Below are positions 20,561-57,791 of a stretch of DNA of 64,000 nucleotides, piece by piece. The position numbers and the translations under genes were made by a program. The DNA lies in assembly GCA_963722385.1 (NCBI GenBank), contig CAVRKK010000002.1, positions 416,001-480,000 of the forward strand. The letters are read 5' to 3'. A model generated the notes under the pieces. It did no database searches and was not told where the DNA came from. It saw nothing but the letters and a program-made list of their open reading frames with translations. Position 1 is the stretch's first letter, and each line of letters starts with the position of its first letter. This DNA is from an uncultured bacterium. Its GTDB lineage: Bacteria; Babelota; Babeliae; Babelales; Babelaceae.

Positions 20561-23026
20561 ATGGAACCGACGTATAATCCACTTACAGCAGAATTGGCAG
20601 CCCAAGCGTTGTGGGAGCAGCACAAAGTCTACACGACTGACCATAATCCCGGGCCCCTTTTTAGTATTGATACGCCCCCGCCAACGGTGTCAGGCGCTCT
20701 CCACATAGGCCACGTTTTTTCGTATACGCAAGCAGACATCATTGCTCGCTATAAGCGCATGCAGGGATTTTCGGTATTTTACCCCTTTGGCTTTGATGAC
20801 AATGGCTTGCCCACGGAGCGATATGTTGAAAAAAAATGCGGCGTAAGCGCATTGCGCGTTGGCCGCACGGCGTTCATAGAGCTCTGTTTAGAGCAAACTG
20901 CTCTTGTAGAGAAAGATTTTGAGCATCTTTGGCGTCGCATGGGCCTTTCTATCGATTGGTCACTTTGCTATTCTACCATCAGCAGCCAATCACGTCGCCT
21001 CTCACAACAATCATTTATAGAATTATACAAAAAGGGCTTTCTCTACCGCAAAGAAGAACCGGCTCCTTATTGCCCTGTCTGCCATACATCGGTCGCGCAG
21101 GCAGAGCTTGAAGATGCGCACAAGCAGTCAGTGTTGAGCGATGTTACCTTTACCTCATCTGATGGCACTCCCCTTGTTATTGCTACGACCAGGCCAGAGC
21201 TCATCGCTTCATGCGTGGCCGTGTTATATAACCCGACCAACATTCGCTACCAGCACTTAAAAAACACCCAGGTGCATGTTCCTCTCTACGGATTTACGGT
21301 ACCCATCTTAGAAGACGAGCGCGTGCTGATCGATAAGGGAACCGGCCTTGTTATGTGCAGTACATTTGGCGATAAAACCGATGTTGAGTGGTTTAAAAAA
21401 TTTAAGCTGCCCTACCGACCTTCGATTGATCGCTCGGGACGCATGACGGAGCGTGCGGGATTTTTAGCAGGTAAAAAAGTGGCAGAAGCACGCCAAGAAA
21501 TACTCCATAAGTTAAAAGAAGAAGGCTTGATCGTAGCAGAAACACCCATTACGCACACCATTAACGTTCACGAGCGCTGCAAAAATGCCATTGAGTACTT
21601 GGCGCTCGCACAATGGTTCTTAAAACTGCTGCCGCACAAAGAGACTTTTCTCGAGCTGGGCAACCGCATCGCCTGGTATCCTGACTTCATGAAATTTCGC
21701 TATAGCAATTGGGTTGAAAATATTAGCTGGGACTGGTGCCTCTCGCGCCAGCGCTTTTTTGGCATACCCTTTCCTGTCTGGTATTGTACACAATGCCAGG
21801 AAATTATTCTTGCTGATGAAAAAAGCCTGCCTATTGACCCGCAAGAGCAAGCAGCTCCGGCATGCACCGCTTGTGGGAGCTCCCAAGCTGTTCCTGATAC
21901 CGATGTTATGGATACGTGGAATACCTCATCCCTTACTCCCTATATCTGTCGCGAGCTCTATCAGGGCCCGCCTGAGCTCTTTATACCGATGAGCATGCGG
22001 CCGCAAGCCCATGATATCATTCGTACTTGGGCCTTTGATACCATTGTTAAGGCATGGATGCATGATGTCACGATCCCCTGGCAAACGATTGTTATTTCCG
22101 GCCACGTTCAAACAACTGAGGGTCAAAAAATTTCAAAGTCGCAAGCCAATAGCCCACTCGTGCCGGAAAATCTCCTTAAGCTTTATCCAGCCGACGTTAT
22201 TCGCTATTGGACCGCCTCAGCCTCACTGGGAAGCGATATCGCATTTTCAGAAACGCAGCTTAAAATTGGCCAGCGCTTAGCCGTTAAGCTTTGGAATGCT
22301 TTCCGGTTTATAAGCGAGCATATTAATGAACATCAGGAAAGCCTCGATCAGCATATAACCGGTATTGCCAATCTTTGGATCATCGAGCGGCTTACACAAG
22401 CTCTCAAAACCTATCATCAGTATTTTGATTCTTATCAATTTAATCTCGCACTAGAGGCGGCAGAGCGCTTTTTTTGGCATGACTTCTGCGATAACTACCT
22501 AGAGCTCGTTAAAGACCTGCTCTTTAATCCTGGTCATTGGCCCGAGCCCGAGGTTGCCTCAACGCGTGCTGCGCTCGCCCATGTTGGCATGCGGATCTTG
22601 CAGCTGTTTGCTGCTTTTATGCCCCATATTACCGAGACCTTATATGGCCAGCTTTTCCAGCATAGGTATAAAGCGATATCGCTCCATCAGGTCCGTTTTG
22701 CTGTTCTTGCCGAGCCAACTATCGCACTTGAGAACATCGAAGCTATCCCCGTACTCCTTGAGATCGTAACACAGGTACGTAAGCTTAAAAGCGATCAGCG
22801 CCTTTCGCTCAAAACCGATCTGCGCACGCTCTATCTAATCAGTGCCGATGCTTACCAAGCAGCGTTAACAAAGGCATTACTGAGCCCCCATGAAAGATTA
22901 ATCGCAGGGGTAACACGGGCCCAGAAGTTTGTCTATCAAGGCTTGAACGACGAGCATCTTACCTCCTCGCTCGAGCAGCGCGAAGATGGCTGGCATGCGT
23001 TTATTATCTTGGCAAAAGCTGCCTAG
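20561..23026 (+). CDS. valS: Valine-tRNA ligase (type 2, archaeal-like)
   Basis: DTPPPTVSGALHIGH, GFDDNGLPTER, WDWCLSRQRFFG, MRPQAHDIIRTW, KISKS; lacks the C-terminal coiled coil. Confidence 0.97.
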   Translation: MEPTYNPLTAELAAQALWEQHKVYTTDHNPGPLFSIDTPPPTVSGALHIGHVFSYTQADIIARYKRMQGFSVFYPFGFDDNGLPTERYVEKKCGVSALRVGRTAFIELCLEQTALVEKDFEHLWRRMGLSIDWSLCYSTISSQSRRLSQQSFIELYKKGFLYRKEEPAPYCPVCHTSVAQAELEDAHKQSVLSDVTFTSSDGTPLVIATTRPELIASCVAVLYNPTNIRYQHLKNTQVHVPLYGFTVPILEDERVLIDKGTGLVMCSTFGDKTDVEWFKKFKLPYRPSIDRSGRMTERAGFLAGKKVAEARQEILHKLKEEGLIVAETPITHTINVHERCKNAIEYLALAQWFLKLLPHKETFLELGNRIAWYPDFMKFRYSNWVENISWDWCLSRQRFFGIPFPVWYCTQCQEIILADEKSLPIDPQEQAAPACTACGSSQAVPDTDVMDTWNTSSLTPYICRELYQGPPELFIPMSMRPQAHDIIRTWAFDTIVKAWMHDVTIPWQTIVISGHVQTTEGQKISKSQANSPLVPENLLKLYPADVIRYWTASASLGSDIAFSETQLKIGQRLAVKLWNAFRFISEHINEHQESLDQHITGIANLWIIERLTQALKTYHQYFDSYQFNLALEAAERFFWHDFCDNYLELVKDLLFNPGHWPEPEVASTRAALAHVGMRILQLFAAFMPHITETLYGQLFQHRYKAISLHQVRFAVLAEPTIALENIEAIPVLLEIVTQVRKLKSDQRLSLKTDLRTLYLISADAYQAALTKALLSPHERLIAGVTRAQKFVYQGLNDEHLTSSLEQREDGWHAFIILAKAA

Positions 23027-23075
23027 GTCCAGCTTTTTTTATAGAGAATATATTGCATGTGCGAGTGCCAAAGCG

Positions 23076-23207
23076 AATTGAATCGCCTACGCGGCTAGCG
23101 GTTAAGGGACATCGTCCCTTAACAATCCCGATGCGTTATGCTTAATGCTTATAAGCTTGGTGAGTAGTTATCGTCCGCCAAAGCGTACGATAACTTACGC
23201 CATTATC
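23076..23207 (+). repeat. Dispersed structured element, copy A (5' part)
   Basis: AATTGAATCGCCT...AAGCTTGGTG...AGTTATCGT...GCGTACGATAACTTACGCCATTATC shared with the copy at 32607. Confidence 0.85.
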
Positions 23208-23239
23208 TGCGCCCGGCACGGGCGCGTGTCTAAGAGTGA

Positions 23240-23927
23240 AATGAATATTAAGGGAACTTCACCAAAAAGAAATTTAAGTGTTGCAAATGACAAGCATAAA
23301 AAGTACCCGTTCATTGCTCGCTATAGACCAATAACTCGAATTAATTGGAGCACCGACATAACCTACATAAAAACCAACCTGGGCACAGTTTATCTTGTTG
23401 CAATTGTTGATTGGCATAGCAGATTTATTATCTCATGGAATATGTCAAATACGATGTGTAAGGAATTTTGTATCGATGCTTTGGTAAGGCGCTTAAGAAA
23501 GATGTGCCAGAAATTTTTAACACGGATCAGGGCTCTCAATTTACTGGAAATTCTTTTGTCTCAATCTTGGTAGAAAATGGCGTACAGCCAAGTATGGATG
23601 GAAAAGGCAGAGCAACGGATAATGCCCAGATTGAGCGATTTTGGCGTTCTGTAAAATGCGAAGAAGTTTATTTGCGCGAACCGAAAAATTTCATTGAGTT
23701 GCAACAGCAGATTAAAAATTACAGCTATTATAATCATGAAAGACCTCACCAGGCACTTCATTATAAAACGCCCACCGAAGTGCATTTTGGCTTAGAGAAA
23801 AAATTTATTGATCAGGAAGGACACTTTATCTATACTGAAACGGAATCGAAATATGTCGAACTACGATAATCAAAAACTATCTTAATTTGACCTAAAAACT
23901 GTCCAAGGTTTTGGGTTCACCCCGGAC
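23240..23927 (+). pseudogene. IS3-family transposase orfB remnant with right end
   Basis: WSTDITYI, DWHSR, TDQGSQF, DNAQIERFWRSVK, YNHERPHQAL; frameshifted; 5' truncated. Confidence 0.9.
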
Positions 23928-26966: not shown

Positions 26967-27225
26967 GCAAAAGCGTACGATAACTAACGTCATTATCATG
27001 CACAGTATGAGATAAAAATGAATATCGCTTTCAGGAAGATTGCGTTTGCCATAATCATGCGGGACGCATGATTATGGCACTGAAGAGACAAGATCGAGCA
27101 AGTAGCATACAGCCATCAAAATGACGATCAATGGGCGGCAGGGCAGCGGCCCTGCCGCCCGACGCGTAGTCGCGCCCGCGGCGGAGGCGTATTCGCTTTG
27201 GCTAAGTCGACTGCGTAAGCGATTG
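26967..27225 (+). repeat. Dispersed structured element, copy B (3' part)
   Basis: GCGTACGATAACT..., TGCCATAATCATGCG-GGA-CGCATGATTATGGCA and GGGCGGCAGGGC-AGCG-GCCCTGCCGCCC hairpins. Confidence 0.85.
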
Positions 27226-27260
27226 ATCCGATGCAAGTTACCGCCCGCCAGAAGCTCGCT

Positions 27261-31116: not shown

Positions 31117-31734
31117 ATGATACAACGCTATGGGGTAATAGTGATATTAGGCTTTGCGCTTTTTGCAAACGCTGATAACCACTTTCTTAATAATGTGCAC
31201 GCTTATCATATCAAAAAGGCTGAACTTGCAAGTCTTAACAACCCAGCATTTAATGCCTTCGTGGATAAGCTCGCTCGTGAACCATCAAAACTTACCCTAC
31301 AAGATATTTGCAAGCTTCATAACTTGATTTATCGTAGCACAAACAGTCAACAAGCAGGCAAAATACGAACCAGCAAAGTTCGGGTAAATAATATGACGCC
31401 GCCTCAGGCGGCGCGCATCAGGCCTCTCATGCAGCAATTGCTAACCTGGTTGCACCATACTCATGAGCACCCACTTGCAAAAAGCAGCGATTTTCATTTG
31501 AAATTTGTCGATATCCATCCTTTTATCAATGGCAATGGTCGCACAGCTCGAACACTGTTTGCTATATTGCTTCTAAGAAACGGTTATCCGCTACCAACAT
31601 TTTTACCTGAAGAACGAAAAGCCTACGTCAAAGGAATTAATCAGGCATTGATGAAAAAAGATAAAAAACTTTATAACCGTATTATGCTTAATGCGGTCAA
31701 AAGAAGCTTTAAAAATATTAAAGGCAAATATTAA
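31117..31734 (+). CDS. Fic-domain protein with signal peptide
   Basis: HPFINGNGRTAR motif. Confidence 0.9.
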   Translation: MIQRYGVIVILGFALFANADNHFLNNVHAYHIKKAELASLNNPAFNAFVDKLAREPSKLTLQDICKLHNLIYRSTNSQQAGKIRTSKVRVNNMTPPQAARIRPLMQQLLTWLHHTHEHPLAKSSDFHLKFVDIHPFINGNGRTARTLFAILLLRNGYPLPTFLPEERKAYVKGINQALMKKDKKLYNRIMLNAVKRSFKNIKGKY

Positions 31735-31779: not shown

Positions 31780-32469
31780 TCAGGTTAAAGCTTCTTTGGG
31801 AACACCGCAATATATGCGCGCCTTATGAGCTAATACGCTTCGTCGCTTGAGAATCTCAAATTGATTGAGAAAAGCTTTAATAAGAGAAGCATCATCGAGA
31901 ATTACCACATTTTCCTGGTTACTATCATTGGCTGATCGGGTAAAGTTGAATGAGCCGGTCCATAGGATTGCTCGATTTTGCAGTGTCTTTTTAAACACCA
32001 TAAATTTGTGGTGCATAATGCCAGCTGCTTTATTCTTATTGTTTTTGCCTTGATCGCGTGTTTTAGAATTATAGAGCCACACTGGCAAGCCGCTATCGAT
32101 CAAGTCGCCTACTTTACTATAGGTTCCCTCGCTATTCTCTTGATCAGCAACAAGCTCTACCTTAACCCCACGCTTATGCGCCTCACGCAATGCCCCCGCT
32201 ATATGTCTATTCGTTAATGAAAAGGCAGCCACTGCTATAGATTCTTTTTCTTCTTGTATAAGCGTAATCAGAATATCCTGTACATTATCATCAGGCGAGA
32301 AGAGGGCGCGTTTTATTATGTTATTGTCCCCGCTTGCTGCTAATACCGCAAGCGTGCGATGCGACGCGCTGCCATGCTCCTTTACTTTCCAAGCAGCAAA
32401 GAAAAAGGCGGCGTTAATTGCGCAAAAAACAGCAACCATTGCGCAACGTTGCAAAAAGTGGCGCATCAT
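31780..32469 (-). CDS. Single-domain phospholipase D / Nuc-like protein
   Basis: FSP, MHHKFMVF, WTGSFNFT, NQEN; N-terminal membrane anchor. Confidence 0.9.
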   Translation of the reverse strand: MMRHFLQRCAMVAVFCAINAAFFFAAWKVKEHGSASHRTLAVLAASGDNNIIKRALFSPDDNVQDILITLIQEEKESIAVAAFSLTNRHIAGALREAHKRGVKVELVADQENSEGTYSKVGDLIDSGLPVWLYNSKTRDQGKNNKNKAAGIMHHKFMVFKKTLQNRAILWTGSFNFTRSANDSNQENVVILDDASLIKAFLNQFEILKRRSVLAHKARIYCGVPKEALT

Positions 32470-32606
32470 ATACTTATTCCTATATAGAATTCGTTTTAAT
32501 TAGTGATTAGTATACAAAATTAAGAGCGTTTCTCAACGTCCTTGATTGGGTGGTATTTTGGTCCTCGCAAATTCCGCCAACCTTTAAAGACGATTGCCTT
32601 AAATTG

Positions 32607-33033
32607 AATTGAATCGCCTGCGCGGCGAGCGCCAAAGGGGGTGCCGCCTCCGCTGATCGCTTTTTTACAAAAAGCTGCTACGGACAAGCGTTGCGCTACT
32701 CCGCATCGCTATGTCCTTTGGGATCCCGTAGCGTTGTTGCTTACAAGCTTGGTGTGTGTAGTTATCGTACGCAAAAGCGTACGATAACTTACGCCATTAT
32801 CATGTTCGCTACACTCCATGATAAAAATTTAATATCGCTTTCTATTTTCCGTCAGGAAAATTGCGTTTGCCGTAATCATGCGCCCCGCATGGTTATGGCA
32901 TGAAAAGAGATAAAAGATATAGCAAGTACCGTGAAGCATCAATGGGTGCAGGGCCGCCGCCCTGCTGCCCGCCGCATAGGCGCGCCCGCTGCGTAAGCGT
33001 TCCCGTCATAGCCTTGCCAAAGCCGGCTGCGTA
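32607..33033 (+). repeat. Dispersed structured element, copy C (full length)
   Basis: Contains all modules; hairpins at 32760-32789, 32868-32900 and 32944-32970. Confidence 0.9.
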
Positions 33034-33065
33034 GTCACGCCTGCTGCGTCAGCACTTCAAATTTA

Positions 33066-36978: not shown

Positions 36979-37883
36979 CGCGAATTCGATCTAAGCCGGT
37001 AAACCAAAAAAAAGAAAATCGGCTGCAAGAGAGGGCTTTTTTTGCCTAAATGAGTAAGCAATTAAGGCAGAAAAGATGGAGGACAAAAAATTAATTGGGC
37101 TTCTATGTCTGGTATGCTCAATAGAAATAGATGATTTAAGGATGCCGATAGCAGATTCAGCCAACCCGCTCTTTTTAAGCAACAATTTGTCAAAAATATT
37201 CATCAGTATATTCTTCATATTAGTGCGTATTTTGGTAACAAAGTGAACTCCTTTATCATAAAATTCTTGAAATGTATCAGACTTAAGAATATATCCTTTG
37301 TCACCAAAAAGCTTGCCAGTTATTTGCTTTGTTAAGCTATTAAGCACATCATAATTATTATCAGCAATATTGCCTTGAGTTAACAAAAAATCAACAATCT
37401 CGCCAAAATGGTTGAAAACAAGGTGTAATTTAAAACCAAAGAACCAATCAATGCTTGTTTTCCCTCTTTTCGCTATCCCTTTAAAAACTTTGTTGCTGTG
37501 AATTCTTTTGTTGTGGCATACTTTTAGAGACGAGCTGTCTATAAAGGAAATACCCGTGCATTTTCCCAGACATTTCATTCTTAAAAATAGGCTAGAGTGA
37601 GCAATGCGTATTTCATGAGCTCTACGAATCTGTTGTAACTTACTAATTGCTTAAATTCTCCTGTTAACTGTACCAATACATGCTTACAATAATAATCTTT
37701 AAATGTTTTATACCCAGAGCAATGATAATAAATCATAATGGTCATAATCTCACAGAGTTGCAGCCTGCTCTTTCTTTTCCTCTTTTTTCACCTTGCAGAC
37801 AAGCCAGGCATCCACTTTTTTCAACGTCTTCGCAAAAATTCGCAACGTGGTAAAATAGAGTAACGAGCAAAGTACTATCCTTA
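36978..37883 (-). pseudogene. IS982-family transposase remnant with right end
   Basis: FIDSS, WFFGFKLHL, GDKGY, IEHTRHRS; terminal ACGCGAATTCGA at 36978; 5' part frameshifted. Confidence 0.9.
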
Positions 37884-47343: not shown

Positions 47344-47801
47344 CTATGTGGCCGACTTCGCCAAGGCTACGATGGGAACGCTTACGCAGCGGGCGCGCCT
47401 GTGCGGCGTGCAGCAGGGCGGCGGCCCTGCCCCGTTGCCTAATTTATTTTTCTCTACATGCCTGTCTTTTATTTTTCCATGCTATAACCATGCGTGGCGC
47501 ATGCTTATAGCTATCGCAATTCTCCTAACGGAGAATAGAAAATATGGGTTTTTTATCATGAAGCGCAGCGTACATGATAATGGCGTAAGTTATCGTCTGC
47601 TTTTGCAGACGATAACTACTCACCAAGCTTATAAGCACGTCGCATCGGGATCCCAAAGGACATATCGATGCGGAGTAGCGCAACGCTTGTCCGTAGCAGC
47701 TTTTTGTAAAAAAAACGATCAGCGGAGGCGGGACCCCCTTTGGCGCTAGCCGCCACAGCCCTGCGAAGCGTTTGCGCGAAGAAGAGGCAGGCGATTCAAT
47801 T
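47344..47801 (-). repeat. Dispersed structured element, copy D (full length, inverted)
   Basis: Reverse complement matches copy C module by module. Confidence 0.9.
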
Positions 47802-47964
47802 TGCTGCTTAACGCTTCCCTGCTATTTCGCTTATCGCTTCATTAATTTTGTTGAAAAGAGCACGCCATAAGATTACTATTAAGAGTAATAGAGTCCCCTT
47901 TACCGCATGCTTAAGCGTTTTTGCAATTCTGGCCATGGTGCTTTTGCAAAGGCTGGCGAAGTGC

Positions 47965-57116: not shown

Positions 57117-57152
57117 CTCCCTAATGGCAACACATTCATCGACCGAGCAGCA

Positions 57153-57354
57153 AATCGCTTGCGCGGCCGACTTCTTCGCCAAGCTACGACGGGGACGCTT
57201 ACGCAGCGGGCGCGCCTGTGCGGCGTGCAGCAGGGCGGCGGCCCTGCACCCACACCAGAGGGATTTTTGCTTTACAGCCTACCTTCGCGTGCCTAATGCC
57301 ATAACCATGCGGGGCGCATGATTATGGCAAACGCAATTTTCCTGACGGAAAATA
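57153..57354 (-). repeat. Dispersed structured element, copy E (3' part, inverted)
   Basis: Matches the 3' modules of copies B, C and D. Confidence 0.85.
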
Positions 57355-57791
57355 AATTCTTTTGTGCAGTAAACCTCTCTACCAAAATATTTAATAAATA
57401 AAAGTCTGATGAGGCCCTCCGTAGTTGCTCGGCGCGTCCTTCGAGGACGCAAGATGCACGAGTAGGGCCGCTTGAAAGGGTCCAGGGGGAACCCTTGGCG
57501 CACGGGATGCAAGGGGGTTTGCGAGAACCCCACTTGCCGCCGACCGCGGAGGTCATTTGCTGCCCGCCGCATAGGCGTTAACTCCAAGGAACCGCTGGTG
57601 CACCGAATGCAAATGTGATTCTATCCTAGCCTGCATCAGCATTCGCGCTTTCTTTGTTATTTGCCTAACTAAAATATTTTGAGTATTCTTACCACAATTT
57701 AATTTTTATAATGGCTGTAGCTCTAGACCTCATAACAAGATCATACGTTAACATAAGAAATAGGCTGCATAAATTCTTAAGGTCGGGAATC

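What the first reader, a model, noticed from the sequence alone, without database searches (positions are those of the whole stretch)
32607..33033. Dispersed ~430-nt modular element with covarying stems: candidate new structured RNA or ssDNA mobile repeat (5 copies)
Seen: five intergenic copies (23076-23207, 26967-27225, 32607-33033, 47344-47801 rc, 57153-57354 rc) share an ordered series of hairpins separated by divergent AT-rich linkers. Stems covary. Copy C reads AGTTATCGT-AC-GC/aaaa/GC-GT-ACGATAACT and copy D reads AGTTATCGT-CT-GC/aaaa/GC-AG-ACGATAACT. Copy B has GCCATAA..TTATGGC and copy D has GCTATAA..TTATAGC. Copy C mismatches in the 32868-32900 stem are G-U wobbles on this strand only. 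The CCAAAGG..CCTTTGG-closed domain of C and D is replaced by a simple GTTAAGGGA/TCCCTTAAC hairpin in A, and D has an extra insert near the 5' end. Inference: selection acts on single-stranded structure, as in a large ncRNA or a REP/REPIN/BIME-like HUH substrate. It is far longer than typical REPs, I do not recognise it as a known family, and no cognate enzyme lies in the window.
Basis: partly seen in the sequence, partly recalled or inferred. Interest (0 to 1): 0.82.

Follow-up and report, generated by a model that had tools for sequence, protein, structure and literature searches.

The report
Triplex-ended mobile DNA hairpin repeat
The five stretches are copies of a gene-less, hairpin-rich DNA repeat found at about 55 places in this genome; each end is predicted to fold into a short three-stranded helix whose layout also occurs at E. 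coli's replication-stalling sites and right behind some phage gene-diversification targets, so the ends likely expose the repeat as single-stranded DNA during chromosome copying.

Summary
Observation confirmed; the large-ncRNA reading is not supported. The five copies belong to about 55 intergenic mosaic repeats (300-600 bp, three subfamilies). Stems covary (20 of 75 pairs). There is no Rfam match, target duplication, gene-orientation bias or cognate enzyme. Both ends are one module in inverted orientation, each on its own strand: purine run, 1 nt, 3-bp stem, purine/pyrimidine hairpin, then small GCRNA-loop caps. The upstream run mirrors the hairpin's purines in one register only; in a blind phage scan the base opposite an A:T pair was A or T in 16 of 16 full modules, as a purine-motif triplex requires. 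The same core is the polymerase-blocking 'G4' of E. coli RRS, and follows the variable repeat in 8 of 39 phage hits (verified DGRs; baseline 0 of 134). Best model: the ends stall lagging-strand synthesis, so the body is single-stranded in either orientation and spreads by recombination-type copying. Folding, stalling and spread are inferred. This scan noted the family, the triplex idea and the RRS hairpin before, in other windows of this genome; the blind triple test and the DGR link are added here.

The parts
32615..33037 (+). Copy C, complete subfamily-I element with a nested insert
   Evidence: part limits read from the ruler
32615..32727 (-). Left end module, laid out on the minus strand: 5-nt third-strand run (32723-32727), 1 nt, 3-bp stem, purine/pyrimidine hairpin (4 of 5 predicted triples intact in C), cap hairpin with GCRNA loop (32615-32627)
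   Evidence: sequence; same layout in other copies; triplex fold predicted, not measured
32644..32714 (.). Nested ~70-nt two-hairpin insert in the loop of the left module (present in C and D, absent in A)
32760..32789 (.). Internal hairpin 1 with a conserved internal mismatch
32797..32824 (.). Internal hairpin 2 (invariant 8-bp stem, variable loop)
32844..32861 (.). Internal hairpin 3 (covarying)
32869..32899 (+). Internal hairpin 4, long covarying stem; G-T 15 versus A-C 4 cells on this strand
32900..32943 (.). A-rich variable linker
32944..32999 (+). Right end module: third-strand run 32944-32946, 1 nt, 3-bp stem 32948-32950, purines 32951-32953 paired to 32960-32962, caps 32970-32982 and 32987-32999
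   Evidence: triplex fold predicted
23069..23207 (+). Copy A, 5' part only, followed by IS3 remnants
26967..27230 (+). Copy B, 3' two-thirds only
47349..47805 (-). Copy D, complete, two nested inserts
57150..57577 (-). Copy E, subfamily II: same right half, different left half, two caps at the left end

Best explanation
This is a non-coding, mosaic DNA repeat present at about 55 intergenic sites, whose two inverted ends are predicted to fold into a short purine-motif triplex hairpin with a small cap, likely stalling lagging-strand synthesis so that the element's body is single-stranded at a passing fork whichever way it points, which would let it be copied and reshuffled by recombination. Shown: copy number, covarying stems, inverted end layout, register-specific mirror covariation, lineage-specific sites, mosaicism, the same core at RRS and behind DGR variable repeats. 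Inferred: that the triplex forms; that 3-5 triples block a polymerase as RRS does; that the exposed strand drives spread. Geometry (inference from established fork polarity): a block on the lagging template leaves unreplicated the DNA 5' of it, which is the element body here and the variable repeat in a DGR. Whether host recombination suffices or an unseen trans-acting nuclease is needed is open.
For: Mirror register test over 61 end types from six genome groups: with a 4-nt spacer an A in the hairpin faces A/T in 32 of 33 cells and a G faces G in 108 of 124; other spacers give 21/31 and 63/109, 13/35 and 110/164, 6/41 and 96/208. Blind test with the upstream bases free: 16 of 104 phage contexts have a perfect 5-nt mirror, 13 with A and 3 with T at the variable place, none with G or C. 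The upstream G run was free in the GTDB scan and present in 138 of 149 ends. E. coli RRS has the same core, blocks Pol I/II/IV in vitro and makes lagging-strand gaps (PMC11194060). 8 of 39 phage hits follow a variable repeat with an A-specific template repeat, against 0 of 134 low-mirror controls; DGR editing prefers the variable repeat on the lagging template (PMC12875486). Orientation is skewed to replication the same way in two genomes (17 of 49, p 0.044; 2 of 14, p 0.013). Neighbouring copies share identical 5' halves and cluster (17 of 47 gaps under 8 kb versus 10.1 expected, p 0.0075). 6 of 67 syntenic gaps are occupied, none in both genomes.
Against: No physical test of folding or stalling; the triplexes here have only 3-5 triples, fewer than the 6-15 of catalogued intrastrand triplexes (PMC4666352), and need one base to span a 3-bp stem. 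Cells are related types, not independent events, and include a few misregistered tandem contexts. The second blind pattern gave only 3 of 103 perfect mirrors. Some ends break the mirror. RRS shares only the core: no other similarity to the repeat, and its authors assign the block to a G-quadruplex. BPP-1 homing was orientation-independent in one study (PMC3240598) and its hairpin has a GRNA loop, not this layout. Only 1 of 26 A-containing mirror hits is a DGR; the core also sits in rolling-circle replicons, where a priming role is as plausible. The orientation skew is weak with local skew (18 of 49, p 0.085) and is also expected of HUH insertion. No empty allele was seen in four metagenome runs.
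Confidence: 0.45

Rival explanations
1. A REPIN/BIME-like non-autonomous element: the folded ends are binding and cleavage sites for a trans-acting single-strand transposase or nuclease that is lost or unrecognised; the triplex is a recognition shape and no stalling is needed.
For: Two inverted structured ends, no target duplication (35 copies, 4.29 versus 4.42 nt), tandem end units in Clostridia, replication-linked orientation, patchy presence (9 of 261 genomes). Nested inserts carry a G-N-A-G tag before a hairpin, as REPs do (read; the REP rule is recalled).
Against: The genome's Y1 protein is IS200-type (154 bits) and below the RAYT cut-off (33 versus 80); no repeat near Y1, IscB or RT genes; Y1 in 4 of 9 positive and 6 of 21 negative genomes; DUF559 in 0 of 9; RT in 0 of 5; no shared enzyme in 80 flanked loci.
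Confidence: 0.3
2. The end module is a single-strand priming or primosome-loading signal; two inverted copies would prime copying of both strands of the body inward, as in two-site plasmid origins.
For: The core lies next to Rep, capsid or Mob genes in small replicons (L403, L441, L451, L464, L512); inverted two-strand layout.
Against: Strand relative to the replicon's genes is mixed; the one tested natural instance (RRS) blocks rather than primes synthesis; 0 phage hits for the full capped module.
Confidence: 0.12
3. A large structured non-coding RNA or retro-mobile RNA repeat.
For: Covarying stems; G-T over A-C on one strand in one internal stem (15 versus 4) and the right cap (3 versus 0); short tandem repeats at the left flank resemble retro-tails.
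Against: Ends laid out on opposite strands; unrelated middles in relatives; uncorrelated halves; no gene-orientation bias (15/15/10/9); no Rfam match while true HEARO RNAs were found; no intact RT.
Confidence: 0.08
4. Neutral relics of an old element whose stems are kept symmetric by hairpin-templated repair and gene conversion.
For: Median identity 67-84%, many truncated copies, mosaicism.
Against: Template switching makes inverted, not mirror, symmetry (established mechanism), and the mirror recurs in unrelated phyla and phages.
Confidence: 0.05

Closest known systems
E. coli Replication Risk Sequences, RRS / TRIP1 (PMC11194060 abstract, sections 4, 20, 25 and passages; PMC13308219, PMC10287960, PMC10888264 passages)
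   Same: The site that blocks polymerases has the same core: purine run, 1 nt, 3-bp stem, purine/pyrimidine hairpin. It is also a dispersed intergenic repeat (13 places in one Klebsiella record) whose 3-bp stem covaries.
   Different: One module per element, five G triples, no GCRNA cap, no other sequence similarity; fixed position and near-essential in E. coli; described as a G-quadruplex, with 'triplex' absent from all four main texts.
DGR target hairpin/cruciform (PMC3240598 parts 1 and 3 of 7 and passages; PMC12875486 passages)
   Same: A GC-rich hairpin directly 3' of the DNA to be acted on; the core of this element holds that place in 8 of 39 phage loci; G...A-closed small loops.
   Different: BPP-1 type is a plain 7-10-bp stem with a 4-nt GRNA loop; no template repeat or DGR RT goes with these copies.
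BoxC / PIT / TM intrastrand triplex repeats (PMC4666352 parts 1 and 3 of 10)
   Same: Dispersed intergenic purine-motif triplex repeats, often in inverted pairs, tied to rearrangement.
   Different: TM is Y-R-R with 9-10-nt stems and a 3-nt loop; here R-R-Y with 3-5 triples, an extra 3-bp stem and a cap, enclosing a 250-500-bp hairpin body.
REP / BIME / REPIN with RAYT (defining features recalled, not read here)
   Same: Non-coding, mosaic, inverted structured ends, no target duplication, intergenic, lineage-specific.
   Different: No GTAG-type tag at the foot of the end hairpin, much longer body, no RAYT in the genome.

Membership tests
Rfam ncRNA (incl. HEARO/omega RNA) | Match to a covariance model | tested here: not met
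   HEARO was found only at the two IscB genes
Large structured ncRNA | One strand, conserved whole structure across species | tested here: not met
   ends on opposite strands; unrelated middles
Large structured ncRNA | Discrete transcript | not testable with these tools
   no RNA holder listed
REPIN/BIME | Two inverted palindromic units around a spacer, intergenic, many copies | tested here: met
REPIN/BIME | RAYT gene flanked by the repeat | tested here: not met
REPIN/BIME | GTAG-type tag 5' of the end hairpin (recalled) | tested here: not met
   end layouts; a tag-like word occurs only in nested inserts and cap loops
MITE of a DDE transposon | Target-site duplication and sequence-conserved terminal inverted repeats | tested here: not met
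   ends conserve shape, not sequence
BoxC/PIT/TM triplex repeat | Mirror purine tract plus pairing pyrimidine tract on one strand | tested here: met
BoxC/PIT/TM triplex repeat | Stems 6-15 nt; TM consensus in Y-R-R order | tested here: not met
   3-5 triples, R-R-Y versus PMC4666352
RRS/TRIP1 | Homology to the 222-bp repeat | tested here: not met
RRS/TRIP1 | Polymerase block and lagging-strand gap | not testable with these tools
   bench test needed; orientation skew is indirect
DGR target | DGR-type RT in the genome and a template/variable repeat pair | tested here: not met
   only a group II-like RT fragment; RT in 0 of 5 relatives; template/variable pairs beside this genome's copies were not searched

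The most novel reading that the evidence does not exclude
One undescribed single-strand DNA fold (short purine triplex on a 3-bp foot, often capped) is a general bacterial 'make a gap here' signal. It is the true blocking structure of E. coli RRS (not a G-quadruplex), the target-exposing element of a class of DGRs, and, doubled and inverted, it lets these repeats force themselves single-stranded at every fork and spread with host recombination alone, with no transposase.
Probability: 0.25. Interest if true: 0.87.

Novelty: new variant of a known kind. Interest (0 to 1): 0.66.

Why it matters
The repeat family by itself is an ordinary kind of bacterial mosaic repeat. Its end module is the valuable part: base-triple covariation in DNA across phyla and phages is rare evidence for a selected triplex, and it ties together two open questions with short, cheap tests: what structure makes RRS stall the replisome, and what the element behind a DGR variable repeat does. 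Natural A-containing variants cannot form a G-quadruplex, so they are ready-made reagents to tell triplex from quadruplex. If the doubled layout works as proposed, it would be a way for a repeat to spread without its own enzyme.

Tried and rejected
Rfam at gathering and E-value thresholds: nothing on the repeat. HEARO/IscB, IS200 ends, RT fragment: no similarity. GIY-YIG: one UvrC-sized frame and one broken small gene, not linked. DUF559, RT and Y1 co-occurrence: none. Shared genes around 80 GTDB loci and inside outward-facing end pairs: housekeeping genes only. Target duplication: none. Terminator or leader role: no gene-orientation bias. Full capped pattern in viral contigs: 0 hits; a looser one gave 82 chance coding hits. 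Plasmid BLAST of the end: no informative hit. Sequencing runs: no RNA holder listed; contigs of four DNA runs showed mosaic joins between copies but no empty site, and contigs cannot show absence. One search had an offset bug and the left-cap and left-stem rows were misregistered: both discarded. The end-to-end pairing proposed was rejected as a by-product of the symmetric ends (many G-U or broken pairs). RRS relatives across Enterobacteriaceae could not be sampled beyond E. coli and Klebsiella records. Genome-wide counts of the nested inserts were not obtained. Searches that found no description of this family or fold.

Full report
Observation. The five copies are real and at the stated places. 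BLAST finds 50 loci in the 1.6-Mb genome; a profile gives 83 hits that merge to 50 loci, two of which are halves of one element, and 0 hits in the reversed genome. Five to six more fragments appear with the second subfamily's left half, so about 55 sites. Copy C folds far better than shuffles on both strands (z -6.5, -5.5). In 18 complete subfamily-I copies (of 49 elements; chosen for completeness), 20 of 75 consensus pairs show double-sided changes. Rfam has nothing for it, while two true HEARO RNAs were found at the genome's IscB genes.

Anatomy. Complete copies are 300-600 bp. At least three subfamilies share the right half and differ in the left; one element has right-type ends on both sides (L034). 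Every end follows one layout on the strand whose 3' end it forms: a 3-5-nt purine run, one base, a 3-bp stem, a purine tract paired to a pyrimidine tract, three bases, then one to three 4-bp caps with a GCRNA loop. The right end reads this way on the plus strand and the left end on the minus strand. Small two-hairpin inserts nest in loops of some copies. Relatives keep the ends and change the middle: G001 has a 230-bp family; a phylum scan matched 9 of 261 genomes, control 0, with elements visible in G051, G052, G059, G008, G100, G184 and a more divergent form in G223. BLAST of the whole copy hit only 1 of 40 relatives.

The triplex test. The upstream run is a mirror image of the hairpin's purine tract: GGG/GGG/CCC, AGG/GGA/TCC, AAG/GAA/TTC, GAG/GAG/CTC, and five-base forms. 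In a GTDB scan that left these bases free, 138 of 149 distinct ends had the G run (the scan stopped at 131 of about 560 stretches; Binatia, Clostridia, Phycisphaerae, Chloroflexi). Over 61 end types, only the 4-nt spacer gives a match: A faces A or T in 32 of 33 cells, G faces G in 108 of 124; spacers of 3, 5 and 6 give 21/31 and 63/109, 13/35 and 110/164, 6/41 and 96/208 (two loci with G001's end type and six probable chance loci were left out; cells are related, not independent). In a blind phage scan for a hairpin with one A in its tract, 16 of 104 contexts had a perfect five-base mirror (chance well under 1), 13 with A and 3 with T at the variable place and none with G or C. Tolerating both A and T is the rule of the antiparallel purine motif (PMC4666352), which also fixes the strand. 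A second pattern gave only 3 of 103, and several natural ends break the mirror. The 3-bp stem also covaries, so one base must span it or the two forms alternate; this is a prediction without a measured structure.

Where else the core occurs. A text search for the core led to E. coli RRS. Its polymerase-blocking site has five purines, one base, the 3-bp stem and a five-pair G:C hairpin, and the G tract is predicted to be paired; nothing else in RRS resembles our repeat. RRS blocks Pol I, II and IV and makes lagging-strand gaps when that strand is the lagging template (PMC11194060); its papers call the site a G-quadruplex and do not use the word triplex. RRS is itself multi-copy (13 places in one Klebsiella record) with a compensatory change in the 3-bp stem. 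In phages, 8 of 39 loci with the G-only core lie directly after a variable repeat whose template repeat differs almost only at adenines and lacks the module; an RT gene was confirmed beside three of the four checked families. They fall into about four families, and one A-containing module is a ninth case. Low-mirror controls gave 0 of 134 (slightly different window size). Others sit beside Rep, capsid or Mob genes of small replicons, many beside ordinary phage genes. DGR homing needs a hairpin at this place (PMC3240598) and in E. coli prefers the variable repeat on the lagging template (PMC12875486), though the earlier study saw no orientation effect.

Mobility. Of 67 gene pairs adjacent in both G000 and the 400 kb of G001 that I fetched, 3 gaps hold an element only in G000, 3 only in G001, none in both. 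There is no target duplication and no bias to flanking genes. Identity of 5' and 3' halves is uncorrelated, neighbours 2-7 kb apart have identical 5' halves, and copies cluster: local copying and exchange. The strand bearing the right end is the G-rich strand in 17 of 49 copies in G000 and 2 of 14 in G001, so the left module tends to lie on the lagging template; replichores were inferred from GC skew only. No helper was found.

Mechanism. A block on the lagging template leaves unreplicated the DNA 5' of it. In RRS that is the measured gap, in a DGR it would be the variable repeat, and here, with one module at the 3' end of each strand, it would be the element body in either orientation. That would explain selection on internal hairpins, mosaic halves and local spread. 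I put mobile DNA rather than RNA at about 0.9, the triplex fold at about 0.75, and the whole chain at 0.45; an unseen trans-acting nuclease (0.3) and a priming role (0.12) are the main rivals.

Standing. As a repeat it works like REPIN/BIME but fails the RAYT and tag tests; it is not BoxC/TM by stem length and order, and not RRS by homology. The family, the triplex idea, the RRS hairpin and the sister genome's orientation were noted earlier by this scan in other windows, and mirrored G tracts behind DGR targets in another genome; those are unchecked notes, not support. Nine literature searches found no description of this family or of this fold; the library lacks most subscription papers, and supplements were not read.

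Noticed in passing
L376, L378, L380, L386 (E. coli record NZ_CP134663.1): Four RRS copies are split at the same position by a ~1.38-kb IS110-family element (family from my reading of the protein; gene in two ORFs): an IS that appears to target RRS.
   Followed up: partly
L008:1233-1462 and L009:1889-2212: Two IscB genes with HEARO RNAs; the second RNA carries a ~100-nt palindromic insert and its gene lacks part of the N-terminus.
   Followed up: no
L332, L347, L357 around 2500-2545: In these phage DGRs a GCRNA-loop cap precedes the triplex core instead of following it.
   Followed up: no
L512, L451, L441, L403, L464: The core lies in small replicons: a microvirus (capsid plus Rep), a Rep_ORF2 contig, a helicase-Rep contig and two Mob_Pre plasmids.
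   Followed up: partly
window 23145-23869 and 36991-37578: IS3 remnants cut copy A; a partial IS982 transposase lies at 36991-37578.
   Followed up: no
G052:C3:75541-75681; L164, L229: Caps alone (25-bp period) or whole end modules (40-41-bp period) form tandem arrays.
   Followed up: no
left flanks of many copies, e.g. window 32605-32614: One to four tandem 5-nt units lie just outside the left cap, in variable number.
   Followed up: no
L038, L017: Two copies abut tRNA-Arg genes.
   Followed up: no
window 20561-23026, 31117-31734, 31780-32469: ValRS scoring best with model PRK13208, a Fic-domain protein, and a phospholipase-D-type nuclease next to copy C.
   Followed up: no
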